Shown: positions 1-64,000 of the stretch, piece by piece
Position numbering within the stretch: position 1 is the stretch's first letter
Layout of the letters: the number at the start of each line of letters is the position of its first letter
Source of the DNA: Azolla caroliniana
Taxonomy: Eukaryota; Plantae; Polypodiophyta
Direction: 5' to 3'
Length of the DNA stretch: 64,000 nucleotides
Assembly (NCBI GenBank): GCA_043228905.1
Contig: JBHGNT010000013.1
Location: 2,914,001 to 2,978,000 of the forward strand
Made by a program: the position numbers and the translations under genes
Notes under the pieces: model-generated
The model's input: the letters and a program-made list of their open reading frames with translations, nothing else
What the model was told of the DNA's origin: nothing
The model's database searches: none

Positions 1-236
1 CAACCATTACAATCCCTAATCGCAAGATGCGACTTTTCTTTGCAAAACTTTGGCTTTGAACTCTTGACTTCAATTTTAAAACACAAAACTCTTTGCAAAT
101 AAACTAAGTTATTTGATTTTCTAACTTTCTCCTGATTCCTTCCTTCATAATTTCCCTTTTTCTTATAGGTTCCCCCATGCTTATGATGCATGTTAGGGTA
201 CAAGACATGCATGTAACGCATGATCGCCATTTGGCG

Positions 237-1430: not shown

Positions 1431-1835
1431 ATACAAATTTAAACATACTCAAATTTCACATTCAAAAGATAAGTTGAATATACAAATTTCATATCAAATT
1501 GAATAAGATGCACATCGTGCATACAAAAGATACCTTCAACCTATTCAAATTTCATTATACACAAAAGATACATTGAATAAGTTTCGAACATTGAATAAGA
1601 TTCACACTGAGCATACAATAGATACAACCGATTCAAAATTTCACACTATGGATACAAAACATTGTCACCACATACAAAAGATACCTTCAACCTATTCAAA
1701 TTTCATATACAAAAGATTGAATGAATTTCGAACATTGAATAAGATTCACAATGAGCATACAAAAGATTCATATTGATTCATATATAACCAAAATGAGATT
1801 CAAATATTGTTTTGATATTACAAAATTAACCATAT

Positions 1836-41100: not shown

Positions 41101-42040
41101 CAACACTTTGAGAGAAGGTGAACCTCAAGAGTTGAGGTCAGATGTGGCCAAGAGGGCCCTCAAATCGGCGAAGGAGAAACTCCGCTAATCGACTCGCCAC
41201 AAGAAGCTAGTGATCTAGTATGGGTATAACGAGTACATGGTGCGCCATTATCCATACATGACGAAGGTAGCTGAAGTCCGCAAGTTGGAGAGCTATGCGG
41301 AGGCATCACAAGTTGCCAAATGGCATTTGGGCATAAAGGAAGAAATGTGGGCATTTGATGCCAATGACACATGGGACTTAGTTGACCCTCCCCAGAATTG
41401 CAAACCGATCGGATGTAAGTGGGTGTATAAAGTGAAATACACCGCTGACAATTTGGTCACCCAGTATAAGGCCCAACTAGTAGCCAAGGGATACACATAG
41501 ATACACGGAATCGATTATGACAAGACTTTTGCATCGGTGGCGAAGATGACGATGGTTCATGTGGTGCTAGCGGTAGCAGAGGCAAGAGGGTGGCATCTCC
41601 ACTAGATGGACGTGAAGAACAAGTATGCATGGTCCAACCACCCAGATTTCAGTCAAAGATGAACAAGTCAATAGTACGTCGAACGAAATAGTCGCTTTAC
41701 GACCTTAACCAAGCCCCCCATGCTTGCAACTCGAAGATCACGCACTGATTGCATAAGATGGGGTTTGTAGCCCCCAAATCCGACTCGACGTTGTTTATTC
41801 GGAAAGGTCCAAAGGGTCCAGTTTGCATTCTGCTTTACATGGATGACTTGGTCATCACCGGACCCGACCTTACTGAAATCAACCAAGTCAAGTCCCAGTT
41901 GTCGGACACATTTGAGATGAAGGATCTGGGGGACCTTCACTACTTCCTCGGGACCGAAGTGATCCATACCCCTGATGGCATATTGTTGTCTCAACAACAC
42001 TATGTTTTGAATATGTTGTTCAAGTGGGCATGAAAGATTG

Positions 42041-42210
42041 GGATAACAGGCTGATCAATCCCAAGAGCTCTTATCGACAGAGTCGTTTGATTTAGTTTGG
42101 GAGAGTGGTTCCCAGAATAATGATCTCTAAGAGCAAAAGTTGAGGGTTCAAATCTCATTTTCTATTCTCTGAATTACGAGAGTGATATGAGTTGCTGTCT
42201 GCTGCTCTTG
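42041..42210 (+). other. 170-bp filler insertion in C1 RT, starting with a ~50-bp organellar (mitochondrial 26S-like) LSU rRNA fragment
   Basis: GGGATAACAGGCTGAT...CCCAAGAGCTCTTATCGAC.GAGTCGTTTG is domain V of bacterial-type LSU rRNA; interrupts the RT codons GMKDC|.SVSTPL. Confidence 0.75.
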
Positions 42211-42243
42211 CCAATCCGTCTCTACTCCCCTCAATAGGAGCGT

Positions 42244-45200
42244 TGTCGTAGTGTATTTCGTACACTATGTGAAAAATTGCATTTTTGTTCCTACGGATGA
42301 AGGAGAAATCGGCAAGGAAGAACTGGTAAGGAGGACCCAGTATGGAGAACTAGTTAGAACCGGATGAAGAAGGCCGGTGAGAAACGGTGAGAAACGGACG
42401 AAGAGGACCCGGTAAGAACCGGATGAAGCAGACCCGGCAAGAGCCGAATGAAGAAGGCCGGTGAGAGTGTCTCACCGGATAAAGAGACATATTTGTAAAT
42501 AGAAGAAAGTATAAAAATATGTATTACATGCATAGGGCAAGATTCAAACCTTGTACCTCCATGTTAATAATGTTAAGCCTTACCACTATACTAACATATT
42601 ATGAATTGTAAAGTTATACTAATCTTTATCCCATACAAATATTCTAGATATGCATGGTACAAAAAGTTATTCATGCATACATACTTGAGTTAAAAGAAAA
42701 GATGGGATAGAAATCTAATCATGCACATACAGTGTGCATGAAACTAAAGTTAGAAAAAGCATGTTAGATAAAGCATATAGTCTATAGTTAGAAAAAAAGC
42801 ATGGATTGTGAAGACTCTCTCATCATTATATAAGGATGGGAAGCACAATGTAATGGGGGGAAATACTTGGAAATTGGATATATTTCCGAAAACACCAACC
42901 AATTAATATAATCGTGGGATTCACGAAAATAATATAATCTATACTTGTGGGATTCACAAGTTTCTTATATCTTTCTTTCAATCTAAATACATATTCTTAT
43001 CTAAATACTAATTAATAAAATATATTATATTTGTGGGATTCGCAAGTTTATAATAATCTATTCATAATTAAAATCGCCTCAAATTCTTCCTCTTCCTAGT
43101 CCAAAACCCCAACGCTTCCCACCCAACTCATGCAAATGATTTGGCGCCGAAAGGCACGACAGAAGTGGTGAACCCGACGTGAAGGCTGGTGGCAAGGAGA
43201 TGGATAATCAACAAGAGGTGACGAGCATAATGATGATGATGATTGAGTGGATGCAACAAGAACAACATGCGATGTCGGAGATGAAGTCGGCGGTAGAGCG
43301 GCTTGTGCAACGAATCGGGCAATTCAATGGAAAGGATGTGTCACGTTACCTATGTGACTATAAGGCGGAGATGATGCGATGTCGGATACTGGAAGGATTG
43401 CAAGTGATATCCTTTAGTCGGGTGGCCTTGGACAAGCTGCAAGAGAGCATATACGAGATACGACAACAGAACACAATGTGGGTGTCCTTTGAGAAAGCAC
43501 TATCGGAGAAGTATGACTACAAGAGATCGATGGGATGAGATCGACGTGAGTTTGACCAGTGGGTGGCATCGGCAAAGACTCACCGAACTGCGACACTAGC
43601 ATTCTTAGAGTTTGAGTATCGTTTTGCTCAACTCTCGGAGCGGGAACAAAGATTGGTGGGGGTGGATAAAGTCCTAATGTTCGTAAGATCAATCAATTGA
43701 AAAGAAAGGATGGACATCAGGATCGAAAAGAAAGGATGATGGTGCGAATGGTCTTACCGAGGATTGGGCTGAAGTCGAAAGGGTATGCCGGAGACATGAT
43801 GAGAGGAAGAAGAGAATCTTGTCAACAACAACATGGCCTATAAGGGATGATTGATTAAGGATAGACGATGTGGCTGATATGAAGGCCGAAGTACGAGTCG
43901 ACGGTACCACGGGAGAGGGTGTGGAACAAGGCATCCTGTCGTCTTGCGAAAGAACGACGGCCAAGGATAAGGTCGATGACTTGAGAGTGGCGAACACCAC
44001 TTCAAGAATGGAAGAAGGTTTCGTAATACAAGTATCCGAAACATCGGGTGAAAAAGGGGTAAGCATAATCAATGCTTGCATGATCGAGGGAGATAAAGAG
44101 TGCGGGGCGGACTTGATTGAGGAGGTCGCCACGAAAGATGACATCGAATCGGAGGTGGCTATGGACGAATCAATGGCGGATGGCCGTATGAAGACTTTCC
44201 CACCACTAGTTCTAGAGACTTCGGCGGTTGCGTTCGAAAGGCAACGTGAGACCGAAGAGACGGAAGGTGGCAGAGAGAAAACGAAGGCCGAAGCTGATGC
44301 ATACCACGGAGAGATAGCCAAGAAGGTGGATATGCGTGAAACAACAGAGAACGATAATATCGAGGATTCCTGCCCACTAATTCTAGAGACTTCGGCGGTT
44401 GTGTTCGAGTACCAACGTGAGACCGGAGAGACGGGAGGTGGCGGCAAGAAAGGTAAAGTCGGAAGCCGGTTCAGATGGAAGATGATCCGGACGAAATTTC
44501 GATCTAAACAAAAACCAACTCGGAAAGGGACCAAATCGGTAAAAACCAATCAACCGATTCCGATTCGGTGAAATATGAATCGGAATGGAAGCCAATCTAA
44601 CCGAAAGATGATCAGACGAGACCAATCTAGAAAAGATGGTAATACTACTCAACCGAAGGTCGGAGAGATCCAGGATGATAAAGACAAGGACGAGGCCAAG
44701 CAGGTGCACTACAAAGGATGACAAGGACCAAGCGGGCCAAGCAAATTTGAAGGGTGTTACCAAGGATGAGATCTCGACAAAGGAGGGCTTTAACATGAAG
44801 ATTGTCAACTCTAACGCAAGATTATACGACAAAGGTGGATGAAGTGGAAAGCAAGTCACCTGCACAAGAAGAGCACAAGGAACCATAACAACCGATCATG
44901 GCAATTCAAAGAATGAAAGAAGAATATGGTGGATCGGATGGCAACAATGGTTCGGGTGGAAAGATTCGATGTGCTCAAAATGGAGAGACAAAGCTGACAT
45001 AACGAGAGAAGCGGAGGGTACAACAAGTAACGAAGAATTACGAGGGCTGGTAACCAGAGACTGGATAGAGCCAGCAACCGAACAGAACCAGAAATCAGGC
45101 GGAGCCGGCAACCAAAAACCGGTGGCCAAACGGGGCCGACAACCAAACACGACTGGCGACGAAACCAACCGGGTGGAGAACGGACGGACGAGACTAACAA

Positions 45201-46252
45201 TCACCGACAACTTCGGCCCATACCGGAGGATGCGTGGGTTCGGAGGGGGTGAGTGTCGTAGTATATTTCGTACACTACGTGAAAAATTGCATTTTTGTTC
45301 CTACGGATAAAGGAGAAATCGACAAGGAAGAACCGATAAGGAGGACCCGGTAAGGAGAACCGGTTAGAACCGGATGAAGACAAGAGCCGGATGAAGAAGG
45401 CCGGTGAGAGTCGGTGAGAAACGGACGAAGAGGACCGGTAAGGAGGACCCGGTAAGAACCGGATGAAGCAGACCCGGTGAGAACCGGATAAAGAAAACCG
45501 GTGAGAATCGGATGAAGCAGACCCGGCAAGAGCCGGATGAAGAAGGCCGGTGAGAGTCTCTCACCGGATAAAGAGACATATTTGTAAATAGAAGAAAGTA
45601 TAAAAATATGTATTACATGTATAGGGCAAGATTTGAACCTTGTACCTCCATGTTAATAATGTTAAGCCTTACCACTATACTAACATATTATGAATTGTAA
45701 AGTTATACTAATCTTTATCCCATACAAATATTCTAGATATGCATGGTACAAAAAGTTATTCATGCATACACACTCGAGTTAAAAGAAAAGATGGGATAGA
45801 AAGCTAATCATGCACATGCAGTGTGCATGAAAACTAAAGTTAGAAAAAGCATGTTAGATAAAACATATAGTCTATAGTTAGAGAAAAAGCATGGATTGTG
45901 AAGACTCTCTCATCATTATATAAGGATGGGGAGCACAATGTAATGGGGGGGAAATTCTTGGAAATTGGATATATTTCCGAAAACACCAACCAATAAATAT
46001 AATCGTGGGATTCACGAAAATAATATAATCTATACTTGTGGGATTCACAAGTTTCTTATATCTTTCTTTCAACCTAAATACATATTCTTATCTAAATATT
46101 GATTAATAAAATATATTATATTTGTGGGATTCGCAAGTTTATAATAATCTATTCATAATTAAAATCGCCTCAAATTCTTCCTCTTCCTAGTCCAAAACCC
46201 CAGCGGTTCCCACCCGCCTCACGCAAACGATCTAGCGCCGAAAGGCACGACA
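42244..46252 (+). mobile_element. Non-autonomous gypsy-like element G2 nested in C1; LTRs 42244-43161 and 45254-46252
   Basis: TGTCGT...ACGACA LTRs, tRNA-Trp PBS TGGTGAACCCGACGTGA, PPT GGAGGGGGTGAG, 4-bp TSD GCGT/ACGT; decayed gag-like ORF, no pol motifs. Confidence 0.9.
42528..42598 (-). promoter_or_regulatory. tRNA-like Pol III A-box/B-box module in G2 5' LTR (second copy ~45618-45688)
   Basis: rc TAGTATAGTGGTAAGG...GGTTTGAATC; 3' LTR copy has GGTTCAAATC. Confidence 0.65.
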
Positions 46253-46873
46253 ACGTGAATCTATGTCCTGACTCGAGAGCGGCATACAATGTGACCCGGT
46301 TCCGACAAATTGTCAAAAGCCTTATATATCTAACTATGACCCGACCCGACATTAGCTATTCGGTCGGGATGATTAGTCAATTAATGCAACGCTCGATAGC
46401 CGAGCATCTTTAGTGCACGCATTGACTATTGAGATATGTGAGCACACAAAGGATCGGGACTATTGTAGTGACACAGTATAGCTGAACCGTTAATCGGCTA
46501 TATGGATGCCGACTAGGCCAAAGATGCATTGGATCACTGGTCTACGTCAAGTTTCATGTTCTCCCTTGGTAGTGCGGCTGTAGCATGGAGTAGCAAGAAG
46601 CAGTTGACAGTGGCCCTATTGAGCACTAGGGTTGAGTATAAAAGAGCCACCGTCATGACCTATGAATTATATCGCTTCGGCGGCTGCTGCAGGACTTATG
46701 GATCAAGGTTCCCATTTTGATTCTGATCCATTGCAATAACATCAACATCATGCAACTAACCAAGAACCCCATCTTCCACGCTCACACAAAGCACATAGAA
46801 GTGCACTATTACTTTGTGTGCGAGCAGGTCCTCAGTGGTGAAGTCAAATCACATCGATTGGTAGGTGTCATGA

Positions 46874-46940
46874 TATGGCAAGACTCGAACCCATGAACTT
46901 ATGTTACATGGGTCGAGCTCTTGACCATTAGACTATATGT
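46874..46940 (-). promoter_or_regulatory. tRNA-like Pol III A-box/B-box module at the start of the G3 LTR (second copy ~59315-59381)
   Basis: rc TAGTCTAATGGTCAAG...GGGTTCGAGTC. Confidence 0.7.
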
Positions 46941-47295
46941 TGTAATACGAAAGATATTATTTTCATTTAGATTTTACTATAGAAAATTGATGTACATTCT
47001 AGATTTCTCTAGAACATTCTAGAAACTTCAAGAGTACTCATGAGAACACTATAAAAGATGACACAAGGCATTATTTTGAACCAAATCGGTTCAATGCCAG
47101 TCTTAAGCCTCCTAGCTACTATTGTATATTCCCTTAACATAATATATATCTTTTGTTATCCTCATTCTCTCTCTCTCTCTCTCTCTCACTCCCTCTCCTT
47201 CTCTCCAGAGTTCTACACCTCCCTTAGTACTAATTCCTTCACTATTTTAGTATTGTTCCTGACAATACTTCTCTGTCTTAGTACTGCTCCTGACA

Positions 47296-47626
47296 ATAGG
47301 TGGCCGACATCTTCCCCAAGACGCTCATATCGACCAAGTTGTAGCACTTTTCGGAGATGCGTAGTCTACAACATCTCAATGTGTCGCACTTGAGGGGGAG
47401 AACAGGTAGAGAAAAAGGGGGAGAGCAACAGGAACAAGCCAAAAATAAAGAAGATGTTGAATCGATTGAAGAAGTCGGCACATCCGGAAGAGCCAGAATA
47501 GGTGGGAAAGGTAGCAAAGTCAAGAAGGACAGAGCCGACCAGAAGAAAAAGGCCAAGACTAAGACATGGTCAGATGTGGTCAAGGGGCTGAAGACAGATG
47601 ATGAATTGGAGACAACCAATTTGATC
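47296..47626 (+). repeat. 331-bp copy of G3's downstream flank (59773-60103) placed after its 5' LTR
   Basis: (a/g)taggtggccgacatcttcc...accaatttgatc present at both sites; followed by a repeated LTR terminus at 47627-47649. Confidence 0.92.
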
Positions 47627-50600
47627 CTGTCTTAGTACTGCTTCTAACAGTTTGAACTGATTTTTTCTCTCCTTCCTTCTCTTCCTTTATCTTCTTACTT
47701 CTCCCTCCCATCATACTAATCTCATATTCCTCTTTTCTCTCATACTATGGCCATTGTTAGCACTCAAGAATATCAATCCGTTTTCTCAAAGCTGCAATGC
47801 TTGAAAGAGAAGTTCCTTGCTTTGGAACAAGAAAATCAACGGTTGTTGAGGGATCTTCAACAAATCCCCTTAGAAAAGCAGCAAACACAACAACAACATG
47901 GGGAACTAGTGGTACGCGTGCAACAACTCAAAGCAACCTTAGTAGCGATGCAACACCAAGGACCTAGTACGCAAGGGATTCATAAAGAACCCAAGATCGG
48001 CCTTCCCATGAAATTCGATGGAACGCGATCGCAGTTTAGAGGATTCCTTAATCAGGTACGATTAATCATTCAAATGCATCCTTCTCAATATCCCACCAAT
48101 GCATCACGAGTGGGACTAGTAGGCACAACTTTGGCATGGTTCCCCCCCTGTTAGAAAAAACCTCTCCCTTGTTAAATAATTTCGAAGAGTTTATTACTGA
48201 GTTTAAAGCCTGTTTTGGAGATACCGACAATGTTAGAACAACAATCAACAAAATCTGATGATTGCACCAAAGTGAGCGGCCGGCCTCAGCTTATGCTTCA
48301 GATTTCCGTCTTCTCGCCACCGATATTCTCTGGGATGACCAGACACTAATGGAGCAATTTCATTTTGGCCTACGTAATGATGTTAAAGATTTACTCTTAA
48401 CTTTCCCCGAGGAGCCAAAGTCATTGACAGAAGCAATCAGTCATGCGGTGCGATGCGATAATCGCCTCGTCGAACCACGTTCGGAACGTCAGTTCCAAAT
48501 GCCACGGACAAGATCGGAGCCCAGCTATGCTTCAATCATAGCAAAGCCTTTCCCAAGGGAGTCATTCAATATGTCTCCAACAAATACTATGGCTCTAATG
48601 GAAATCGACACCACGTCGCCGCGGACCACTATTGGAAGAAGAAAAGCATTGACGCAGGGCAAATCGATTATGTCTTTGTTGCGGTGGACCGGGGCATATT
48701 GCAGTGAATTGCCCCCATCGCCCGAAAATGCAGGTAAATCAAATAACCGCTAGAACTAATAGTACTAAACCCGAGTCTATTCCTCTAGGTGTGTCTGATA
48801 GTCCTAATAGCCCAATCCTTTCAAACAAATTTGAAATCCTTAGTCAACTAGAAGAAGAGTTAAACGATTAAGTCCAACCAAAATAGAAGCCGTTTGGTTG
48901 GACAACCTTAGATCTGTGCAACCCATTAGTGGTTCCATTTCCTCTAAGAAAGTTAGCAATGTGTTCTTAGTTCAAGTAATGGTTAGTACTAAAAGTACTC
49001 CTCTAGTACATGTCTTAGCACTCTTAGATTCCAGAGCCAACTCTTGCTTCATGGATAGGAATTTTGCCCAAGCTCATCAGATATCCCTAAAGAAACTCCC
49101 ATGTCCAGCCTCTATAGTTGTCATTGATGGTCGTCCCATTGCTTCCGTGAATATTATAGAAGAGTCAGAACCCATTAATATTGTCCTAGATAACTTAGTG
49201 TGTGTAGTATCATTTAATATAATTAGTATCCTAGAACATCCCATTGTTTTGGGATTACCATGATTCGAATTACATAACGCAACCATAGATTGGAGAACAA
49301 GAGAAATACAGTGTCGACAAACCCGAAGATCTTCTCATAAGATTGCAACCATTTCGCTACATCAGTTGCATGAGGAAGGACGCAAGGAAGAAATGTTTCT
49401 CTTTGCAATATCCGTAAACCCCTCCAATATCAATAAAGAGGAGTCCACCATTCAACTTCCAGAGAAGTATTGTCATTATGCCAATGTGTTCGATAAAGTA
49501 CGAGCTAATACGCTTCGAGCTAGAAGTCCTTCGAGTGTATATAGAGGAGAATTTGGCAAATGGTTTCATTCGACATTTGAAATCTCCAGCCAGCGCACCC
49601 ATTTTCTTCGTCAAGAAAAAGGATGGATCACTTCGTCTTGTCGTAGGTTACCATGGGTTGAATAAAGTCACCATCAGAAATAGGTATGCACTTCGTCTTA
49701 TCTCAAGTCTTTTAGAACGGATCAATGGTGCAAGGTTCTTCACAAAGATCGACTTACGAGGAGCGTATAACCTTGTACGGATCCGACCAAGAGATGAATG
49801 GAAGACTGCATTTCGCACCAGATATGAGCACTTCGAGTTTATGATCATGTCATTCGGCCTCACTAATGCGCCAACAGTCTTCTAGCACATGGCAAATGAT
49901 ATATTCCGAGATCTCTTGGATGCTTTTTTGATCATCTATTTGGATGATCTACTAGTTTATTCGAAGACCCAAGAAGAGCATGATTCTCATGTGCCGTTAG
50001 TACTAAAACGACTTCGAGAACATGGTCTTTATGCAAAATTGGAAAAATGTAGTTTCAGGTGCAACCAAGTAGAATTTTTGGGCTATGTCATTTCCTCGGA
50101 AGGCATCTCCATAGATCTAGCTAAGGTCAAAATGGTGGTAGAGTGGCAGACTCCGCGTTCATTGCGAGATGTAAAATGCTTTTTAGGCTTTGCCAGTTTT
50201 TACCGCAAGTTCATACATGATTACTCAAAGCTTGTTCTGCCTCTCACACAACTTACCAAGAAGGGAAAATCGTTCGTTTGGTCTGAAGAAGCGGACATTA
50301 CTTTTGAGATTCTTAAGAAGGCATTTACATCAGCTCCTATTTTAGCTCATGTTGATCCAGGAAAACCATTCATCATTGAAGCAAATGCGTCGGATTTCTC
50401 CTTGGGTAGCATTTTGTCTCAACAAGGCGATGATGAAAAGCTACATCCTCTGGCTTTCTATTTACGCACCTGTGGCTTTCTATTCACGCAAGTTTGACAC
50501 CGTGGAAATCAACTATGAAATTCATGATAAGGAGCTATTAGCAATAGTGGACTCTTTTACTCAATGGAGGCATTTTCTAGAGGGTTCTTCTCATCAAGTC

Positions 50601-50742
50601 ATCATATTCAGTGATCCCAAAAACCTTGCCTACTTTCAAAATGCTCGTGTTAAATCGACATCAAGCTCGGTGGGCCCACTTCCTCACTCGTTTCGACTTC
50701 AAAATCACATATCATCCGGGGAAGCAACAAGGGAAGGCAGAT

Positions 50743-53700
50743 TATTATAGATCTAAGTACTAAAGTAAGCTTAAGATAAGGATAAAGTAATAATATAGAT
50801 AGAAAGAAGAAAGAGAAAGAAGGGTGACGATCCACCCGACCACCCCCAAGCGAAGGGATCGGGATGGACTCGAGCCTCGATCGGCGTCCCATACCACCGT
50901 CGTGGCGTCGAGTCGTACCTGGTGCTGGCGCGCTCGCTACAAGAGTTGACCCACCACACGAGCAGAGTCTCGATGTAGTCAAAAGATGATCCAATGAGGG
51001 TAGCTAGGCCTCTTATTTATAGCGATACCCAAGGCCCCTAGGCAAGTTCACACTTGACCTAATGGGTTGTCTCAATCCCGAGGATTAAAAGTAATCCTCC
51101 CCTTCTCTACACTCTCGTTTAACCCTCACACTTATCCACGTGTATAGAATACTACGGTAAATTCTTACCACGGGATATTATATGGTCATGCCCGTAACAT
51201 ACTCCCCCTCTTTAAAACATTGCACTCTTGCAATGGAAAGTTAGGGAAGTTAGTTCTAAGAGTATTTTCGCGTTCCCATGTGGCATCTTTTATTGATTTA
51301 TCCATCCATTTTATTTTAAATTCTCGGATTTCTTTAGTACGTAATTTTTTTGTTTTAACATCGAGAATTCTTTTTGGTACATGTGGTTTAGAAGATATTT
51401 CTTCAGAAGTAACCAGAGTTTCAGTCGTAATTGTATTGTCGCCAGAACCTAGAAGTTCTTTTAGACGACTCACATGAAAGACTGGATGAATTCCGACACC
51501 ATCAGGAAGAGCGAGACGATAGGCTGATGACCCAATGCGTTTGAGAACTGTAAAAGGTCCACAAAACCGTGGGGCTAACTTAGCGCACTTACCCGTAGAC
51601 AATGTCTTAGAATTGTGAGGTACACATAAAAATACCTTCTGTCCAGGGTTGAATACACGAGGTTGCCTATGATGATCGACATAAAAACGCGCTCTATCTT
51701 GAGCTGTTTTTATATTATCTCGTGCAATATGCAACATATCTTGCATATCCCGAAGAAAGTTTTGCGTACTTCGCAACTCATCATGATGTATATTAACATC
51801 AATCGGGGCTCGTGGCTGAAAACCATACATCAACATAAAAGGACTATATCCCGTCGACGTATGCTTGGAGCTGTTATAAGCAAACTCCAAAATTGGGAGA
51901 TAACGTTCCCATTTTGTTGGTTTTGCACCAACGTATGCTCGAAGCATGTCCTCAATAATTTGATTTACTCGTTCTGTCTGTCCATCGGATTGAGGATGAT
52001 CCGTGGAGCTCATGCTCAACGTAGTTTCTAACTTCTTAAAGACTTGCGTCTAGAAGTCACTAGTAAACTTTGGATCTCGATCACTCACGATATCCATCGG
52101 TAACCCATAAAAACGAAACAATTCGTCAACGAATTGGTAAGCCAGTTCAGGAGCTGTTACCGTGGTTTTAGTAGCAATAAATCTGGCCATTTTAGTTAGT
52201 CGATCAACGACAACCCAGATGGCATCATGACCTTTTTGGGTGCGAGGAAGGCTAACAATAAAATCCATGGATATACTTTCCGACTTATTATTGGGAATGT
52301 CCAAGGGATGTAAAAGTCCTGCGGCTTTAAGTCGCTCGGCTTTGTTAACCTGACACTGGTGACATTTAGTCACATAGCTATGTATGTCAGGACGCATCTT
52401 AGGCCAATAAAATTGAGTGGAGATGAGAACAAGTGTACGATGTATTCCAGGGTGCCCTGTTGAGGGTGCATCATGGCATTAAAAAAGAATCCTCTTTTTG
52501 ACCTCGGGTAAATCTGGAACACAAACCTTCCCATTACGGTAGAGCAAACCGTTAGCAATGTGGAAGTATTCCTTCAAGGATGTGGTGGTGTCTGTTCCAA
52601 ACTCAACTCTTGCCCAGTATTTTGCGAAATAACTGTCATCAGGATACTTTCCTCGAAGGTGATCATAAAGATCGGATGATATTTCAGTGAAGCTAAGCGT
52701 GTTAACTTCACGGATGCGACTTAGTGCATCAACGACAATGTTCATGGAACCTTTACGATATCGTATAGAAAAATCAAAGTCCTGGATGAGATCAGCCCAT
52801 CGTGCCTTACGACCTTTCAGGTCTTGTTGGTCACAAAAATATTTCAAGGACTCGTGGTCCGTAGTTACCACAAAGTGATTTCCATAAAGATAATGGCGCC
52901 ATGTTTTGAGTGCATGTATAACTGCAAATAATTCCTTTTCTTGAACGGTATACCGACATTGAGCAGAATCAAGTTTCTTACTCTCGAACGCTATTGGTTT
53001 ACCATCTTGATATAAGACAGCACCTATAGCATAATCGCTTGCATCGGTTTCAACCTCAAAAGGTTTTGAAGGATCAGGTAAAAGAAGTGAAGGAGCCTTG
53101 CAAACTAGGTCCTTGAGTTCCTTAAAGGCGAGGTCTAGTGTACCATTCCACACAATAGGTTTTGTAGACTTACGTGTTTGACCTTTTAAAAGATCAGTAA
53201 ACGGCGTCGTCAATTGGGAGTAATTACGAAGAGACTTTCGCAAAAACCCGACAAAACCAAGGAATGATCGAACTTCTCGAATATTCCGAAGAGTGGGCCA
53301 AAGCTTGATTTTCTCAATGCGAGAAGGATCAATTTCAACTCCTCGTTCGGTTATGAGATGTCCTAGATAAGTAATTGATTTCTTGAAGAACTCACATTTT
53401 GAGATCTTTGCATAAAACTGTTTGTCACGCAATGTTTGTAAAACAAAGCGGACATGTCTAGCATGTTCTTGTAATGTACGGCTATAAACTAAAATATCAT
53501 CCAAGAAAATAACGACAAATTTTCCAAGTTGTTCTCGGAAAATGTCATTCATTTCTTGTTGAAAAGTAGCTGGAGCATTGGTCAAACCAAAAGGCATAAC
53601 CAAAAACTCGTAATGGCCATAGCACGTACGAAATGCCGTTTTAGGAACATCGTCCTCACTTATTCGTATTTGATGGTAGCCAGTACGGAGATCAAGTTTC

Positions 53701-56700
53701 GTAAAATACCGAGCTCCTTGGAGACGGTCAATTAGATCGTCAGCCCGGGGCAATGGGTACGAATTCTTGATCGTCACTTTATTCAAGCGTCGGTAATTAA
53801 TACACATACGCCATGTGCCCTCTTTCTTTTTAACCAAGAGAACTGGTGCACCCCATGGAGATTTACTATAACGTATATAACCCATTCGTAAATAGTCCTT
53901 GAGTTGCTTAGATACCTCATCTTCTTCGGATCGACTTAAGCGATACGGAGGTATACTTATTGGTGCAACACCAGGTACAATATCTATACGATGGTCTATA
54001 TTACGTTTAGGAGGTAACCCATCAGGTAGTTCACTTGGAAAAACATCATGAAAATCATTTAAGATTTCATCAAGTTGTTGTTGTTCAAAATATGATAATT
54101 GAACCGGGACATTATCGATATTGTAAACGTGAATGTCCGGATCAAGTACACAATAAAAAAACGTAGAACAAGACAACTCAGATATTGATGGACACGAGGA
54201 AACAATCGAGAGGGATTGTTTTTTTACACATTGAATAAATTGCGTACAATCGTTCAGTACAAAAGAAATGGAATGGCGAACCCAATCAATAAATAAAGAA
54301 GAGTTTTTATTATAAAACCAGGGATAACCCAGTATTACATCAGTGGTACAAAGATTCATTACATGGAAGTCTACTTCCTCTATATAAGTATCAATAGAAA
54401 TTCCTAATGAATGAATCGCCCCGTTGATGTATTGTACTCTTCCATCAGCCAAGTGCACCGTGTAGGTGTGATCACTTACGGTGGGTTGGATTCCCCATAT
54501 CTGAACCAAACGATCATTCACAAAATTGTGTGAGCTTCCCGAATCAAATAAAAATTGTACGGGAGATCCATTGATATACCCGTTTGCACGTAGTAAATCA
54601 TTGGGACCCAATACATAGTGAGGGAAAGAACATTGACAATTACTTAAATGATGTGTATAGACCTGAAGGACATTAGGAATCTGACCTTTATGGTCTGCAG
54701 CTTTAGCTTTGTTGTCGTGCTCTTTCCGTTGGAGCTTTCAACATTGATCTTTTGTATGACCCTTCTTTTTGTAGAATACACAAAAAGGATGTTGTCGCTT
54801 ACAATCGCGATCCAGGAATTCGTTGGGTGTCTTGCGTTTCCCAACAAATTGCGACTGCTTAGTCCCGGGCGCTTCGTTGGGTTTGTTATGGTCCTTCTTC
54901 GAAGTGCATTGATAGCGAAGAACTATTTCAACGGCCTCTTCGAAGGATTTTGGATCCTTATCGTGCATTATCCAGTGATAGTCCGAATTGGGGATGCCAT
55001 TGACAAAACAAGCTATCAACCAATTGTCCCCTTCTAGACCCGATTTTTGGATTTGGGTTCTAGCATGGTGAACATAGTCTTCTAGCGAGGAAAATTTCCT
55101 GCTAGAGAGGTTCATTAAAGCTTGTGCTGCCTCGGTTCGAGAGGGAGGTTGCAGAAATTGGCCCTTAAAAACCGTGACAAAATCTATCCAGGTATCGGGC
55201 AATTTCCCCATAGTACGGAGCCCACGCCACCAGGCGGCGGCCTTACCCCCGAGTTCTCGGCCGACATATGCAATCTTCGTACTATCTGGCGTGGGATAGA
55301 GCTCAAAATGAGACTCCCATCGTCCCAGCCATGTGCAGATTGCTTCTTCGGTTCTTTCCTTTTTGTCTCCCGTAAATGGCTTAACAACAAATGATGGTTC
55401 ACCTTGTCGCTCATCAGGTCTATTAGTCTCACGTTGTAGACTTATGACACGTGCCTCAAGAGCACTCTGAGATTGCCGAAGTTCGGTCATCTGTTGAGCG
55501 GTGAAACTGAGGTATTGGGTTATTTGTGCCAAATACATCTCAGTGGACATTTGTCCAGGAGGATTCCCTTGAGTTCCTTCCGCTTGAGCGGATGACATGG
55601 GGTCGTTAATTTGAGCCATTAAAGATTATTTCTGGAAAAGAAATAGGACAAGGTCAGAAATATAGTTATAACATCATGTCGTGATGTAAACATATCATGG
55701 GCGAGCATTAATCGATATCATTATCTCACGTCAATACCCCTCTAGACGTATGAGATGAGGTTCAAGATCAGGTTACTATGGTAACACAAAGGTGTTTTAA
55801 AAACCATGGGGGTGACAAATAAATGTCTTTCCCTGATCTCTATATCGATTTTTTCATGGTGGCTCCCCGAGGCTCAACCATGTATGTTCGCGTCATGAAT
55901 TGTTTATACACGAAAAAAATGTTAATAATAAACTATATTTCGGTGCCCACATATGTGGTTTCGGCTCTTTATTAAGTCCTATTACGAGGACCCCGAGGTG
56001 CACTTAGACCTTAAGTCTAAACATGTGTTACAGTCATATGTATCAAGGATATTGTATGGTCTTGGTCATATTTGAACTCGAGACCTCGAGAACAAATACA
56101 TTAAACACTTGAGGCAACCAAGTAAGTTGCTCTTCTCGAATGCTTAATGTTTGATGCGTATAAGAGATATGCGAGGCAATTGATCATATATGTTTTTTTT
56201 TTAAAAGAACATATATGTCAAGGGTCCTTATTTCGCCCTCATTTACCAAAACTATGTTGGTACGTTACCTAACCTCAAGTCTCGTAATTACGATGGCATA
56301 CGCCAAAGTGCAACCTAATGGTCAAGCCAAATGAGCCCTCATTTCGTAGTAGGCTCACGTGGGCCATCACATGGTCACGTCATTACGAATGCCTCTCGTA
56401 AGAACGAGCTCATGGTGGCATCGTATCCATGTAACGAGGGAGGGATGTTGGATACGTGCGTCATTGGAGCGACCTCACTTGAAGTGGGTCAAGCCCTACG
56501 TACTCAACATCATTTTGGCTATTGGCGTTTCTTTACGTAACGAAATCGAGGTCGTCAACGGTGTTATCAACAATAAAAAAATGTTGAAAAAGGGATGGTG
56601 ACAACGCCATTCTCACAAAAATGTGAGGACGGCCACCAACATCCTTTTCCCGACAAGGACAACTTTCGATATAATCACGTAATAACGAATATACACATAT

Positions 56701-57755
56701 GTTTACTTATCACATATATACGATCAAATACGTATATATGTGACCACATATGCCTATATTAAACATATCGTTATATTAAATAGCCACAAATGATGTGATC
56801 GAGATACGTAATCGAGGTATATACCTCTACGCACACGAAACATCCACAAATAAGAGATCATCGTAATACGCAATTGAGGTATTGACCTCTTACGCATACG
56901 AGACCAACCGCATATCGTTTACTACAAATCAACAACTCATACGCAAACGTAACATATGTTCGTGAATGTAATTGAGGTATTAACCTCGTACGCATACGAC
57001 ACTCATCACATATTATTAATATGTCAAACGAGGTATTGAGCTCGTGCACATATGTAAACGTTTTAGATAATCAATTAAAGACCACTACAACATCATTGAC
57101 TTAATGAAAAAAAATGACATATAAACTAAACACATGATTAGATGGGAGAAGAGAGAATAGAAAAAAAATTCTGGAAAGAGTTACCGAAGTTCTTTGTTGA
57201 TCGTTGTCTGGATCAAGGCCGACCGCATATCGATCGATCAACATCAATCAAAAGACAAATGAAAAACAAAGAAACATTAGTACATAAATCTGATACCAAA
57301 TATTATAGATCTAAGTACTAAAGTAAGCTTAAGATAAGGATAAAGTAATAATAGATAGAAAGAAGAAAGAGAAAGAAGGGTGACGATCCACCCGACCACC
57401 CCCGAGCGAAGGGATCGAGACGGACTCGAGCCTCGATCGGCGTCCCATACCACCGTCGTGGCGTCGAGTCGTACCTGGTGCTGGTGCGCTCGCTACAAGA
57501 GTTGACCCACCACACGAGCAGAGTCTCGATGTAGTCAAAAGATGATCCAATGAGGGTAGCTAGGCCTCTTATTTATAGCGATACCCAAGGCCCCCAGGCA
57601 AGTTCATACTTGACCTAATGGGTTGTCTCAATCCCGAGGATTAAAAGTAATCCTCCCCTTCTCTACACTCTCGTTTAACCCTCACACTTATCCACGTGTA
57701 TAGAATACTACGGTAAATTCTTACCACGAGATATTATATGGTCATGCCCGTAACA
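50743..57755 (-). mobile_element. Chromoviral gypsy G4 nested in G3; LTRs 57301-57755 (5') and 50743-51199 (3')
   Basis: Perfect TSD CAGAT; highly similar LTRs; Met-type PBS TGGTATCAGA; PPT AAAAGAGGGGGAG. Confidence 0.96.
51186..55619 (-). pseudogene. G4 gag, PR-RT-RH, IN and chromodomain with few lesions
   Basis: gag ORF 55619-54738; [21 protein letters not shown] (54611-52479); SMDFI, SDRDPKF, GQTERVNQ; RILD...IKW...ATWE; frameshift near 52480 and stop at 52050. Confidence 0.92.
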
Positions 57756-59601
57756 CAGATGCATTATCACGGCGTTCATATCTAGCACTACGTCTCGGCG
57801 AGCCGGCTTTCGATAACCAAAAGTTAGTAATCTTGGGACCGGCACGACTGCAAGCAACACATGTCTTCGGTATGCCCTTGGATTCCCACGTTATCAATAC
57901 CATACATGAGAACTTGAAGACAAATGATTTCGCTCAAGCCATTCTAGCACAAATTGATCCCTCTTGAGCATCTTATTCACAATCGCAACAACCAAGTACG
58001 GACTATCGACAATTCAAATGTCATGCTGGATTACTATTCTTTAAGAAACTCTTGTATGTTCCTAATGGTACTTATCGCCGTCAAGTAGTCCAAAACTATC
58101 ATGACACATATACAGTTGGGCATTTTGGTAGTACTAAAACACAAGATTTAGTACAACAATCCTTCTGGTGGCCCCATATGCGACAATTTGTCAAAGATTT
58201 TGTTTGGACTTCTGATACATGTTGCAGAGAAAAAATGCCAAGGCATCATCCATATGGTTTATTAGAAGCATTACCAATTCCAAGCAATCCATGGCAATCC
58301 ATTGCCCTAGATTTCATCACAGATCTTTCGGTCTCTAAGGGATTCGATGCGATCTTAACAATAGTAGATCAATATACGAAGATGGCCCATTTCCTGCCAT
58401 GTACTAAGGAAATCCCTAGTGAACAAACCGCCGAAATTGTCATGCATGAAGTATGTCGGTATCATGGCCTTCCCAATAGTATCATCAACAGTCGTGGATC
58501 CCAGTTCGTCTCAAAGTTCTAGAAGCAGCTCTTTAAAATGCTTAAGGTCACTTGTAACCTCTCCTTTAGCTACCACCCACAAACAAACGGCCAAACAAAA
58601 CGAACAAATCAAACGCTGGAGCAGTATCTTCGGTGCTTTTTAAGCTATCATCAAGATGATTGGGTGGATATTCTTCACTTTGTTGAATTTGCGTATAATA
58701 ACTCTGTCCATTCATCGACAAAGGTGACACCATTTTATGCTTACACGGGCTGTCACCCCCGGTGGTGTGTATTTGAAATCCCAGAGTTACCCACAAATCC
58801 TTGTGCAGAGGATTGTTTGGAGCATCTATGTAAGATAGAAGCAGATTTATCTACTCATCTACAACAAGCTCAACAAATACACAAGGTTTATGCGGATCGT
58901 CATTTGCTTCCATCTAGTTTTCACATTGGAGATTGGGTGTGGCTACTATGACGACACATCAAGACTACTCGCCCATGCGAGAAGTTGGATTATCGTCGAT
59001 TAGGTCCGTTCTGTGTATTATCGGAAAAATTAATGATGTCCCTTTTCGTCTCGATCTACGTCCTCAACTTCGGATACATCCTGAGTACGAGGTTGTCGCC
59101 ATCGTCGATTCCAAGATTGTTCGCAACAAGCTCTACTATTTAGTCGATTGGCTAGGATATAGTCCCAGCGAGCATACTTGGGAACCAATAGATAATGTCA
59201 CCAATGCTGGTGCTCTTCTTGAAGACCTCCATCGTCAATATCCAGACAAACCGGGTCCTCAATCCAAAAACGACTCGTGACACTCGTCATTTTAAAAAGG
59301 GGATAGTGTCATGATATGGAAAGACTCGAAACCATGACCTTATGTTACATGGGTCGAGCTCTTGACCATTAGACTATATGTTGTAATACGAAAGATATTA
59401 TTTTCATTTAGATTCTACTATAGAAAATTGATGTATATTCCAGATTTCTCTAGAACATTCTAGAAACTTCAGGAGTACTCCTGAGAACACTATAAAAGGT
59501 GACACAAGGCATTATTTCGAACCAAATCGGTTAAACCCCAGTCTTAAGCCTCCTAGCTACTATTTTATATTCCCTTAACATAATATATATTTTTTGTTAT
59601 C

Positions 59602-59642
<41 letters not shown>

Positions 59643-61409
59643 ACTCACTCTCTCCTTCTCTCGAGAGTTCTACACCTTCCTTAGTACTAATCCTCATCTT
59701 TTAGTACTAATTCCTTCTCTGTTTTAGTATTATTGTTAATAGTACTTCTCTGTCTTAGTATTGCTCCTGACAGTAGGTGGCCGACATCTTCCCCAAGGCG
59801 CTCAGATCGTCCAAGTTGTAGCACTTTTCGGAGATGTGTAGTCTACAACATCTCAATGTGTCGCACTTGAGGGGGAGAACAGGTAGAGAAAAAGGGGGAG
59901 AGCAACAGGAACAAGCCGAAACTGAACAATATGCCGAATCAATTGAAGAAGTCGGCACATCTAGAAGAGCTGGAACAGGTGGGAAAGGTAGCAAAGTCAA
60001 GAAGGATAGAGCCGACCAAGAGAAAAAGGCCAGGACCAAGACATGGTCGGATGTGGTCAAGGGGCTGAAGACAGATGATGAATTGGAGACAACCAATTTG
60101 ATCAAGTGGTTGGATTCGGACGAGCCAAATCCAAAGAAGGTCAAGCAGACAAGAGGGAAATCGAAGCCAACACCGAAACGAAGGATTCAACAAGTCAAGG
60201 AGCGTTGATACCACAACAACAAGGGAGCTAAGAAGGACCTTAAGAGTAGACAAGATGCGCGGAGTTGGATGGGTTAAGAAGCGCTAGACCGGAGGGGGTG
60301 TAGAATGCGGAACCAGACTGGTGGAGGAGCGCAATCAAGGCGTGAGGATGATAGGAAGAGCCAGAAGATGGAGCCGACAGATGAGATGAAACCTCAAGTT
60401 GAGCTTGCGAGGGAGTGTTGAGATGGAAGCTCAACATGGGCCGGATTGGCTAAAGAAGCCAAGAGACAAATCAGATCGAAAAGTCGAATCGGAGAGGTGG
60501 ATCCACGAGAGCTAGTAGGCCATTAGAGGCCTACGATCCTAGCCTAGTAGATAGGCATATTTTTAGGAGTTAGTGTCAGTCACTCAGTTATGAGCATTGA
60601 AGTACATGTTAGTACTTCTATCAATCCTTTAAGGACTTGAATAAAAGTGCTCTTTGAGCACATTGTATGTACATAGAGTGTTATTTTTTAATTGAGTTTT
60701 AAGTGTTATGGTCCCTCTGTCTCTCCCAAGTTCTCTGCGTGTTATCTGAGTTTCCATTAATCCTTCATTTATTTTCTGTTGCTATCCGAATGTAACCGGT
60801 TTTGTCTTTTAGCTTCCGCGCGCTATTCTTTCATAGCACAACCATTAGAAGCAACAATTGTGTCTCGACAATAACAAGGAACGAGAACTCAAGGACTCCT
60901 TAAGGAACCAAAAATCAGTTTTTCCATTAAATTTGATGGAACATGATCACAATCTAGAGGGTTTCTCAACCCAGTATGTTTAATAATCAAAATGCATCCT
61001 TCTCGATATCCAACCGACTCATCACAAATGGTATTAGTAGACACATTACTAACCGGTATAACATTAGCCTGGTTTACACCCTTGTTGAAAAAGGATCTCC
61101 TTTGTTAAATAAATCAAGGAATTCACTAACCAAAGGATGTGTAGGAGATACTGATAGTGTTAGAATAGCAATGGACAAAATTTGAAGGCTACGAGAAAGG
61201 AATCATCTTGCCTCAGCCTATGCAACTGATTTTTGTCTACTGGCAACCGATATTCCATGGGACGACGAAATTCACTCACGTGGCCAATTAGTCAATCAGT
61301 ACCATGCGATAACTAGCTTTTCAAGCAAAGTTCATAACGACGACAACAAATGGCAAGGACAAGGTCATAGCCCACATATGCATCAATTGTAGCAAAATGC
61401 TCCCCACGG

Positions 61410-61720
61410 TAATCATACAATACATCATCTACAAATGCGCCAACACCAATGGAAATCAATGGAACACATCATCATGAACCATTGTCCGAAGAGAGAAAAC
61501 AATGGCATCGAGAAAACCCTACCCAAGGGAATCATACAATACATCATCTACAAATGCTCCAACACCAATGGAAAATCGATGCAACACATCGTCACTATCC
61601 ATTGTAAGATGAGGAAATGCAATGACATCAAGCAAACCCTCCCTAACAGAATCATACAATGCATCATTTATAAATGCTCCAATACGAATGGAAATCAATG
61701 CAATATGTCATCATGAACCA
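61410..61720. repeat. ~120-bp unit repeated about three times in G0 gag
   Basis: aatcatacaat(a/g)catcat(c/t)ta(c/t)aaatg at ~61410, 61530, 61650. Confidence 0.8.
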
Positions 61721-63042
61721 TTGTCAGAAGAGGAAAAGCAAAAACGAGCAAACCGCCTATGTATATATTTTGGTGGCCTAGTGCATCTTGTAGTGAATTG
61801 TCCCTATAGGCCCAAATGTGGGTAAACCAAGTTGCTACTATTGACAAACCTAAGTCTATTTCATTAAGGGTATCTAACAATATTGGTGGACCAAGCTTAT
61901 CAAATAAATTTGAGGTTATAAGTCAACTAGATGTTGAGTTAAACGATTAAGTCTAGGCAAAATAGGAGTTGTTTGGTTGGGCAGTCTTGGATTTGTGGAA
62001 TCCATCAATGGTTCCATTTCTTCTAAACAAGTTAACAACGTATTCTTAGGTAAAGTGGAAGTTAGTATAACAACAAATCACTAAGTTCATTTTCTAATAC
62101 TCCTAGATACCGGGAAATTATTGCTTCATGGATAGAGATTTTGCTCGACTTCATCAGGTAACTCTAACAAAACTTCCCAGCCCAACTTTTGTAGTAGTTA
62201 TTGATGTTGCCCTTTTGTTTTCAGAAATATAGTAGAGGAGTCTAAGCCAATTTATGTTGTGCTAGATAATTTAGCATGTGTAAATCCTTTAACATAATTA
62301 GCAGCCCTAGACATCCAATTGTTTCGGGTGTCGTGGTTTGAACTAGATAACCCCAAAATTGAGTTGACAAAGCGACAAATCAAGTATTGTTAACAAAATA
62401 ATTTGAAACCCCAAGCATTTACTATTATAGAACTCAATCTCATAGGATTTCAACTATTTCACTATTACAATTACGTCGAGAAGGACGAAAAGAATGAATG
62501 TTCTTAATATTTGTAATATCAATAAAGTTTTCCAATATCATTGAAGTAAAATTAGAAATCTAACTTCAGACTAAAAAAGTATCAAGATTATGCAGATGTT
62601 TTTGACAAGGTAAAAGCTAATACACTTGTAAAACATCAAGTATATGTTTGTCCCATTGATTTACAACCAGGAAAGGAGCTACCATGGGAACCAATCTACA
62701 ATTTTTCACCAAACTAGCTTGAGGTTCTTCAAACATATACATTGCGCAAAACTTGGTAAATGGATTCATGTGATACTCAAAATCTCCAACTGGTGCACCC
62801 ATTGTCTATATGAAGAAGAAATAGTGTTCACTTTATCTAGTAGTGTATTACCAATGTTTGAATAAAATTACTATTAGTAATAGCTATGCAGTCCCCTTGA
62901 TTCTAGTCTCTTAGAATGAATTTGTGGAGTAAAATATTTTACAAGTATTGATTTACGAGATGCATAGTTTTGTCTGGGAGACAAGTGAGAGACAATTTTC
63001 TGCATTCGATATGTCATTTTGAGCATACAGAGATGTCGTTAG

Positions 63043-63396
63043 TGTTGAAAATAATAATAATTATAAATTGTTATTAATCTTAGGAATACGGAAGAACTGT
63101 AACTGTATCGGTGATGGGATTATAAAGCCACCACCAATGATGTAATAATTAGGGCGTAATAATATAACTATTTTTTTTTCTCTCTGTCTCTCTTTATCGT
63201 AATTAGCTTACCCTAATGGTAAGTCGATAACACTACAAGCATTGTGTCTTGGGTTCGAAACCGAATTTCTTCACCTCTCTATTATATACTTCATATATAT
63301 CTCTATTTCACTAGATGCCACTGTGGAATGTAGGGGTTGAACCCATGACCACTTGGTCTCCATTGGGCAACCTTACCAACTGAGCTACATCCATTT

Positions 63397-63450
<54 letters not shown>

Positions 63451-64000
63451 TTTCCCTACATGGTATCAGAGCCAAACAACCTAAAAGCCTTATAGTCTAT
63501 GCCTTTCTTAAATCACAAAACACATGCCCTTATCATAATTTAACTTTTATGCCCATACAAAAATAATCATATTCATAGTGTCCAAGATCGTCAATTAACG
63601 AAAGACAATTTTGTGTTTGCCGTGCGCTGATCCGGACAGCCCTCTGCAATAATGGCACAATCTATGTCGTCATCGCAACTCAACATGCGAAAATTCACGA
63701 TCGAGAAATTATCGGACACAAATTATCGAATTTGGAAGGCAAGATTAGAATTACTTTTTAAATATAATAAAGTATGGGACATAATTTCAGGATCGTCGAC
63801 AAAACCTGAAAAAGGCGAAGAACTTGTAGAGTATGAGGAAAAAGACCTATGTGCAAGAATGGAAATTCTAATGCATGCAGGTGATGGCACTGGAGAAATA
63901 TTGCGAAAAATGGAGACGGCTCATGAAATGTGGAAGCACTTACAAACTATCTACGAGCCGAAAAACAATGCCCAACAAGCGCATACACTTCAAGCGCTTC
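63043..64000 (+). mobile_element. 5' end of copia C4 inserted in G0 RT: LTR 63043-63460, PBS, gag from 63652 running off the window
   Basis: TGTTG...CTACA followed by TGGTATCAGAGC; IEKLSDTNYRIWKARLELL...TAHEMWKHLQTIYE. Confidence 0.9.
63323..63393 (-). promoter_or_regulatory. tRNA(Ala)-like sequence inside the C4 LTR
   Basis: rc TGGATGTAGCTCAGTTGGTAAGG...GGGTTCAACCCCTACATTCCA with A-box, B-box and partial acceptor stem. Confidence 0.7.

What the first reader, a model, noticed from the sequence alone, without database searches (positions are those of the whole stretch)
42528..63393. tRNA-like Pol III promoter modules in the LTRs of several unrelated retrotransposon families
Seen: A-box/B-box pairs at tRNA-like spacing occur antisense in both LTRs of G2 (42528, 45618) and of G3 (46874, 59315), twice in the copia C4 LTR (63203 plus, 63323 minus), and in decayed form in the G0 LTR (~26868-26922). 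The G2, G3 and C4 LTRs show no other similarity to each other. Presence in both LTR copies means the module replicates with the element. Known: Cassandra TRIMs carry 5S Pol III promoters in their LTRs, and TFIIIC-bound B-boxes act as chromatin barriers in yeasts and mammals. Inference: repeated capture of tRNA-type promoters may give Pol III transcription, insulation from silencing, or antisense RNA. I do not know of this being described as a general LTR feature.
Basis: partly seen in the sequence, partly recalled or inferred. Interest (0 to 1): 0.8.

Follow-up and report, generated by a model that had tools for sequence, protein, structure and literature searches.

The report
tRNA promoters fixed in retrotransposon LTRs
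Several jumping-gene families in a likely fern genome keep a tRNA-gene-style promoter, mostly facing outward in their end repeats, after the rest of the repeat has diverged, so it is likely bound by the tRNA transcription machinery and would help shield the element's own promoter from silencing.

Summary
The A/B-box modules are real. A profile trained without window sequence ranks five of the seven first (28-35 bits; shuffle maxima 11-20); C4-minus scores 18, and G0 (14) is within noise. They keep tRNA length and the variable-loop motif but no cloverleaf. In the G3 lineage (Tcn1-like, self-priming chromoviruses with long intact pol frames), eight families at 56-76% integrase identity hold an antisense module at the outer edge of U3. 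Box identity is 0.61-0.82 against 0.33-0.37 in spacer and flanks, which points to selection. It is not a general LTR feature: 4 of 13 LTR stretches in the window have it, a sister clade has it in 0 of 6, and G0 is a G3 relative. The C4 cassette is far more abundant than its own U3 and lacks terminators. Best reading: a TFIIIC/Pol III element beside the Pol II promoter, likely a barrier; binding, transcription and benefit are untested. Precedent: Helenus TRIMs, which are non-autonomous. This scan earlier noted sense modules in chromovirus LTRs of another, fungus-like genome; two such appear here too. New variant; interest 0.55.

The parts
46881..46935 (-). G3 module (A box, 33-nt gap, variable-loop motif, B box) at the outer edge of U3, 117 nt from the TATA box, facing away from it
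59322..59376 (-). G3 module in the 3' LTR; one extra B-box mismatch; a T5 run follows 24 nt later, in the complement of the PPT
46866..47296 (+). G3 5' LTR (TATA near 47052). A copia-end fragment (47297-47627) and a second LTR end (to 47649) follow
47650..47661 (+). G3 self-primer site, complementary to the sequence about 30 nt after the TATA box
   Evidence: compensatory change in L002
47750..59280 (+). G3 broken gag-pol (protease, RT, RNase H, integrase, chromodomain), interrupted by a chromovirus on the minus strand (50743-57755)
59307..59775 (+). G3 3' LTR after the PPT
42540..42593 (-). G2 module in U3, 234 nt from the TATA box, TATAA 25 nt upstream, T5 23 nt downstream; B-box CpG decayed
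45629..45682 (-). G2 module in the 3' LTR; same CpG decayed on the other strand
42244..46252 (+). G2 element: LTRs 42244-43161 and 45254-46252, tRNA-type PBS, 2.1 kb interior with no Pfam match (non-autonomous; superfamily not established)
63209..63262 (+). C4 plus module, downstream of a TATA-like box (likely R/U5); no T4 run within 70 nt
63333..63387 (-). C4 minus module, perfect consensus match, convergent with the plus module; (GA)n upstream; no T4 run within 70 nt
63043..63460 (+). C4 copia 5' LTR, followed by a PBS of the initiator-tRNA type (recalled) and copia gag
26869..26922 (-). G0 decayed module near the 5' end of a G3-lineage LTR (about 26838-27116); T4 19 nt downstream

Best explanation
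The modules are tRNA-derived A-box/B-box pairs that several retrotransposon lineages of this likely fern have kept in their LTRs, likely as DNA binding sites for TFIIIC, and in the G3 lineage and G2 they would act as an outward-facing Pol III unit that shields the neighbouring Pol II promoter from silencing. Shown: sequence, spacing, position, orientation, family-wide presence, box conservation, loss of the cloverleaf. Inferred step 1 (about 0.75): the boxes are kept by selection for TFIIIC binding. Inferred step 2 (about 0.55): in G3-lineage and G2 LTRs, TFIIIB is loaded on the AT-rich DNA between module and TATA box and Pol III makes a short RNA of about 90-100 nt, antisense to U3. Inferred step 3 (about 0.45): the benefit is a chromatin barrier or open-chromatin anchor for an element whose chromodomain would place it in heterochromatin. 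The module cannot make the genomic RNA: it points away from the element in the 5' LTR, and a TATA box and start-site self-primer are conserved. The C4 cassette may be binding-only or a separate repeat.
For: Position-defined test: 8 of 8 testable rows (6 families) in the starred 12-row integrase clade, plus L017 and L033 in the next clade, have the antisense module within about 100 nt of the LTR start. Mean pairwise identity over 8 families: B core 0.82, variable loop 0.66, A box 0.61; spacer 0.37, flanks 0.35 and 0.33. The gap is 32 or 33 nt in all 14 aligned modules while the T-stem letters differ between families. Cloverleaf pairs: 48% against 46.8% shuffled; RNAalifold finds 0 pairs. Seven module-bearing contigs hold stop-free pol frames of 1115-1235 aa. 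Contigs of three DNA runs cover the G3 module at least as deeply as most of its LTR; the G2 module bin is 2-4 times its neighbours in X1 and X2, and 37,452 against about 160 at 45719-45824 in relative X9. In the C4 cassette 0 of 45 box positions vary at 15% or more, against 13 of 146 others (Fisher p 0.027). A T>=4 run starts within 25 nt of the B box in 6 of 12 modules against a background of 0.116 (p 0.0012; distance chosen after viewing; A4 control 1 of 12). Upstream DNA is 74-97% AT in 11 of 12 (pool 64%), with TATAA/TATATA in 6 of 12; plant tRNA genes have an upstream TATA (PMC3082873, abstract). TFIIIB/TFIIIC limit silencing in yeast (PMC9540200, passage).
Against: No ChIP, stranded RNA or reporter data. 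In the G2 copies the B-box CpG has decayed in both LTRs (2 of 25 LTR-LTR differences), so that copy was likely methylated and not protected. G10 of the A box is kept in only 3 of 8 families. TATA positions scatter from -18 to -42 and no CAA motif is conserved. L001, L002, L017 and both C4 modules have no nearby terminator. A sister clade with 6 testable LTRs has no module. The passages I read of the plant barrier review give no plant case of a tRNA barrier. All outside antisense modules come from one series of assemblies, so host and lineage are confounded. Six of the 8 families were first noticed by a box scan, and the alignment is anchored on the modules.
Confidence: 0.45

Rival explanations
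1. The product matters, not the binding: Pol III makes a short RNA antisense to U3 from thousands of LTRs, and it regulates the element (self-limiting dsRNA/siRNA, or a decoy).
For: Fixed antisense orientation in the G3 lineage and G2; excess of T runs at terminator distance; U3 is part of the genomic RNA's 3' end.
Against: The spacer is unconstrained and has no fold, though an antisense RNA needs none. C4 has both orientations and L029 and L040 are sense. Four chromovirus rows lack a terminator inside the LTR.
Confidence: 0.18
2. Neutral relics: an abundant host tRNA-SINE head inserted into LTRs several times and hitch-hiked without function.
For: The C4 cassette is about 10-100 times deeper than the C4 U3 and shows tandem joints, as a separate repeat would. 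Modules also sit in a pol linker (L002, L031) and at window 52-106. Kojima proposes SINE insertion as the origin of Helenus.
Against: Boxes are kept while spacer and flanks fell to near background across families of 56-76% integrase identity. No poly(A) tail or TSD is seen beside any module. It fits the origin, and perhaps C4, but not retention in the G3 lineage.
Confidence: 0.15
3. Integration role: the modules are mobile Pol III landing pads, or recruit the integration complex, as Ty3 targets Pol III start sites.
For: Earlier scan notes report pile-ups upstream of LTR-borne modules in a fungus-like genome (e1-10420520, e1-10420559; unchecked). L031 has a G3-lineage gag-pol next to an array of tRNA-Tyr-like genes.
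Against: No insertion lies within 60 nt upstream of any of the 7 window modules or the 10 outside ones printed. The L031 junction has no LTR.
Confidence: 0.1
4. RNA-level tRNA pairing: antisense D-loop and T-loop sequence in U3 of the genomic RNA pairs with a host tRNA, as in the bipartite PBS of Ty3.
For: Ty3 U3 pairs with the T and D arms of tRNA-iMet (PMC5371799, passage); the orientation in G0, G2 and G3 fits.
Against: G3-lineage elements self-prime, with a compensatory change in L002. T-stem letters differ between families, so no one tRNA fits. Plus-strand copies exist (C4+, L029, L040).
Confidence: 0.07

Closest known systems
Helenus TRIMs (TRIMp3), Kojima 2024, PMC10886601 (read parts 1-4 of 6; figures and supplements not seen)
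   Same: tRNA-like sequence in both LTRs; boxes A and B conserved; mostly no functional tRNA; SINE insertion proposed as origin. The paper also says 'not a few LTRs' in Repbase hold part of a tRNA.
   Different: Helenus are short non-coding elements (311-1263 bp) proposed to be transcribed from the Pol III promoter, and the paper argues that autonomous partners must use Pol II. Here the hosts include coding chromovirus families with a TATA box, and the module faces away from the element. The only plant Helenus is in Selaginella.
Cassandra and Ajax TRIMs (as described in PMC10886601)
   Same: A Pol III internal promoter carried in the LTR.
   Different: 5S-type boxes, non-autonomous; in Cassandra the promoter drives the element's own RNA.
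Tcn1 clade chromoviruses (PMC6317226 and PMC2864245, passages)
   Same: Chromodomain, no tRNA PBS, self-priming predicted, non-seed plant host.
   Different: Neither paper's main text contains 'polymerase III'; the described SM-Tcn1 LTR is noted only for TATA and CAAT boxes.
tRNA-gene and TFIIIC chromatin barriers of yeasts and animals (PMC9540200 passages; PMC3395662 abstract start)
   Same: B-box DNA elements that would bind TFIIIC beside a Pol II unit.
   Different: Those are host loci; here the candidate barrier is carried by a mobile element, and barrier action is untested.
cqgypsy_1 of Culex (PMC3286476, passages)
   Same: tRNA-like sequence inside a gypsy LTR region.
   Different: A single Twin-like insertion with folded tRNAs and a 26-nt duplication; no lineage-wide retention reported in the passages read.

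Membership tests
Helenus / TRIMp3 | tRNA-like sequence with A and B boxes in the LTRs | tested here: met
Helenus / TRIMp3 | Short non-coding element (about 0.3-1.3 kb) | tested here: not met
   G3 and C4 are coding; relatives have 1115-1235 aa pol frames; G2 is 4 kb
Helenus / TRIMp3 | Pol III promoter able to transcribe the element's RNA | tested here: not met
   G0, G2 and G3 modules point away from the interior in the 5' LTR; C4+ is sense, but the element is a long copia
Type 2 Pol III promoter | A box and B box at tRNA spacing | tested here: met
   32-33 nt in 14 of 14 aligned modules; A box partly degenerate
Type 2 Pol III promoter | Upstream TATA (plants) and downstream oligo-T | tested here: inconclusive
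   TATA-like in 6 of 12 at scattered positions; T>=4 in 6 of 12; neither at a fitting place for C4
Type 2 Pol III promoter | TFIIIC binding and Pol III transcription | not testable with these tools
   no ChIP data or stranded raw reads available
Functional tRNA gene | Cloverleaf | tested here: not met
tRNA-derived SINE | Tail and TSD, free-standing copies | tested here: inconclusive
   no tail or TSD beside the window modules; G3 depth follows the LTR; the C4 cassette is much deeper than its U3; flanks of other copies not readable
Tcn1 chromovirus (G3, G0) | Gypsy domain order with chromodomain | tested here: met
   (G3); G0 by gag homology only
Tcn1 chromovirus (G3, G0) | Self-priming site in place of a tRNA PBS | tested here: met
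Tcn1 chromovirus (G3, G0) | RT/IN tree placement with named Tcn1 references | not tested
   no named references held; the tree uses unnamed loci

The most novel reading that the evidence does not exclude
Autonomous LTR retrotransposons of unrelated lineages in one plant group have convergently domesticated tRNA promoters as portable chromatin barriers, so that thousands of LTRs seed TFIIIC sites across the genome; fungal chromoviruses did the same independently in the opposite orientation. This would be transposon-encoded anti-silencing by a cis element and a first plant case of a tRNA-type insulator.
Probability: 0.3. Interest if true: 0.8.

Novelty: new variant of a known kind. Interest (0 to 1): 0.55.

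Why it matters
Pol III promoters in LTRs are described for tiny non-coding TRIMs, where they are thought to drive the element's RNA. Here coding chromovirus families keep one where it cannot do that job, so it needs another function. If it is a barrier, it would explain how elements with heterochromatin-reading chromodomains stay active, and it gives a ready test of whether tRNA/TFIIIC insulators work in plants. It would also mean that a very abundant repeat adds many TFIIIC sites to the genome.

Tried and rejected
No whole genome is held, so genome-wide family scans were not possible. ARAGORN and Rfam found no tRNA in the modules. A G3 LTR pattern found nothing in metagenome contigs; C4 patterns found nothing in genome or viral contigs; the G3 chromodomain found nothing in viral contigs. 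No RNA holder is listed on record. Run X4 (RNA is a guess) has low-depth contigs over the G2 and G3 modules; contigs give no strand or start, so this is not used. The protein atlas was unavailable for the G2 gag-like frame, and tblastx of the G2 interior against the rest of the window and L001 gave no hit, so G2's superfamily is open. A hairpin over the B box seen by eye in G3 and L008 is not shared. Priming of reverse transcription by the antisense RNA was rejected on logic: it would lose the R-U5 template. A module-like stretch in the G4 pol linker (about 62400) was rejected: its 'A box' is conserved coding sequence. The per-base variant table for G2/G3 was cut at 40 of 300 rows, so it gives no conservation test. 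Literature: searches found no report of conserved antisense A/B modules in autonomous plant LTRs; the library lacks most subscription papers and Repbase Reports, and the Helenus supplements were not read. One search used a guessed fern genus and gave nothing relevant; the host genus is not established. Look-ups of earlier notes by sequence were empty; same-genome notes concern another feature.
Full report
Setting. The window is plant DNA: a UBA1 gene (about 15.1-24.7 kb) among nested LTR retrotransposons. One UBA1 exon groups with fern sequences in a 30-row tree (support 89/82, not starred), so the host is likely a fern. No genome is held.

The observation. All seven modules are in the sequence. 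At loose settings the excess nearly vanishes (74 vs 58). A profile trained on 7 outside modules, without any window row or L001, ranked G3, G3, G2, G2 and C4+ first (28-35.5 bits), then a new hit at 52-106 (23.6) and C4- (18.4). G0 scored 13.8, within the shuffle maxima of 11.5-20.5. No module is a tRNA: ARAGORN and Rfam are blank, cloverleaf pairing is 48% against 46.8% shuffled (one of five measures, pairs changed on both sides, reached 7 of 500), and RNAalifold finds no pairs. Ancestry from a tRNA head is still plain: class I length, a 32-33 nt gap in 14 of 14 aligned modules, and the variable-loop motif before the B box.

The host elements. G3 is a chromodomain gypsy element with a self-primer site complementary to its start region, as described for Tcn1 (PMC6317226, passages). 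G0 is a decayed relative of G3. G2 is a 4-kb element with a tRNA-type PBS and no Pfam match; its superfamily is open. C4 is a copia. So there are three lineages, not four. In G0, G2 and G3 the module is in U3, antisense, and in G2 and G3 it lies 234 and 117 nt from the TATA box. In C4 two convergent modules lie downstream of a TATA-like box. Nine other LTR stretches in the window scored 14.3 or less, so 4 of 13 carry the module.

Family level. Contigs of three DNA runs lie on the G3 module (421,000 summed depth in X1) as deeply as on the rest of the LTR (200,000-340,000), against 12-27 for the single listed contigs. The tool warns that this is no copy number, but the family is clearly very large and carries the module. 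The G2 module bin is deeper than its neighbours, like the TATA region and the LTR end; in relative X9 it is 37,452 against about 160 at 45719-45824. For C4, U3 reaches 2,000 while C4+ reaches 16,000-43,000 and C4- 175,000-240,000 in X1, with tandem joints and diverged spacers as loose ends. The cassette is therefore shared with many more loci than this U3; whether these are other copia LTRs or a free repeat is unresolved. All 13 sites varying at 15% or more lie outside the boxes (0 of 45 vs 13 of 146, p 0.027); this count is depth-weighted and limited to contigs at 80% likeness or more.

Lineage level. A pol alignment fetched 78 metagenome loci and one viral locus. I examined the 3' LTR start in 67 of them and built an integrase tree from 45 of the 76 rows with a match, leaving out mostly near-duplicates of the distant 40-43% group. 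In the starred 12-row clade with G3, all 8 rows with enough LTR carry the antisense module within about 100 nt of the LTR start (6 families); 4 rows lack the sequence. L017 and L033 in the next clade carry decayed versions, found by eye at the same place. Their sister clade has none in 6 of 6 testable LTRs (best score 8.4). Across 8 families, identity is 0.82 in the B core, 0.66 in the variable loop and 0.61 in the A box, against 0.37 in the spacer and 0.33-0.35 in the flanks; beyond the module most LTR pairs align little above shuffles. Seven of these contigs have stop-free pol frames of 1115-1235 aa, and L001, L002, L005 and L009 show TATA and self-primer sites. High-coverage contigs are likely collapsed family averages. 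All outside antisense modules come from one series of assemblies, and L017/L033 are closer to the module-free clade than to G3, so the trait follows the host as much as the tree (2 changes). L029 and L040, AT-rich and on a separate branch, have sense modules near the LTR start, in line with an earlier unchecked note on a fungus-like genome.

Mechanism. Conservation of the protein-contact letters with free stems, in both orientations, fits DNA binding by TFIIIC better than RNA structure or tRNA pairing. Retention of the A box and gap, AT-rich upstream DNA and an excess of T runs at terminator distance (6 of 12, p 0.0012, distance chosen after viewing) suggest a full short Pol III unit in the G3 lineage and G2, but not in C4. 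It cannot make the genomic RNA. TFIIIB would sit between the module and the Pol II TATA box, with the unit at the border to host chromatin. I commit to a barrier or open-chromatin role at 0.45, by analogy with yeast (PMC9540200, passages); that chromodomains steer these elements to heterochromatin is recalled, not tested here. Against it: the CpG in the G2 B box decayed in both LTRs, and a sister clade does without the module. Rivals are an antisense RNA function (0.18), neutral SINE relics (0.15, mostly for C4), landing pads (0.10) and Ty3-like tRNA pairing (0.07; PMC5371799, passages).

Relation to what is known. Helenus TRIMs carry tRNA-type boxes in LTRs, and that paper notes in passing that many Repbase LTRs hold tRNA parts. 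It works like a TRIMp3 promoter in sequence, but these elements fail Helenus membership on size, coding capacity and orientation. Searches found no report of the autonomous, antisense, lineage-conserved arrangement; PMC2864245 and PMC13570524 (passages) do not describe it. Supplements and Repbase entries that I did not see could. Verdict: real, likely selected, restricted in distribution, function untested; new variant of a known kind; interest 0.55.

Noticed in passing
L002:1010-1062(-) and L031:10329-10381(-): An antisense A/B module lies in frame inside the protease-RT linker of pol in two families, making the linker longer than in P0001.
   Followed up: partly
window 52-106 (-): An eighth module-like hit (23.6 bits); the nearby 216-238 matches a motif in the L005/L006/L009 LTRs. 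Context unresolved.
   Followed up: partly
window 42030-42243: A non-copia piece just left of G2 that resembles organellar large-subunit rRNA (recalled) followed by an A/B-like pair at 42098-42155; Rfam gave no such hit.
   Followed up: partly
L031:470-8250: Tandem array of about 11 intron-bearing tRNA-Tyr-like genes (identity recalled), next to a G3-lineage gag-pol that lacks an LTR at the junction.
   Followed up: partly
window 47085-47097 and 59525-59539: The self-primer sequence at the G3 start site itself resembles a B-box core on the plus strand, also in L001, L005 and L009.
   Followed up: no
window 45436-45590 vs 30016-30179: The G2 LTR shares a tandem-repeat block (70%) with the LTR of a young copia (LTRs 99.4% alike), suggesting U3 exchange between lineages.
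   Followed up: no
window 47297-47626 and 59776-60103: Both G3 LTRs are followed by the same copia 3'-end fragment; after the longer right-hand copy a second G3-like interior starts at about 60840.
   Followed up: no
L029:5321-5375(+), L040:2309-2362(+): Sense modules with T5-T6 runs in LTRs of AT-rich chromoviruses on a separate branch.
   Followed up: partly
window 6200-6260: The gypsy element at 1833-6452 shows no purine tract before its 3' LTR; same-genome notes discuss such elements.
   Followed up: no
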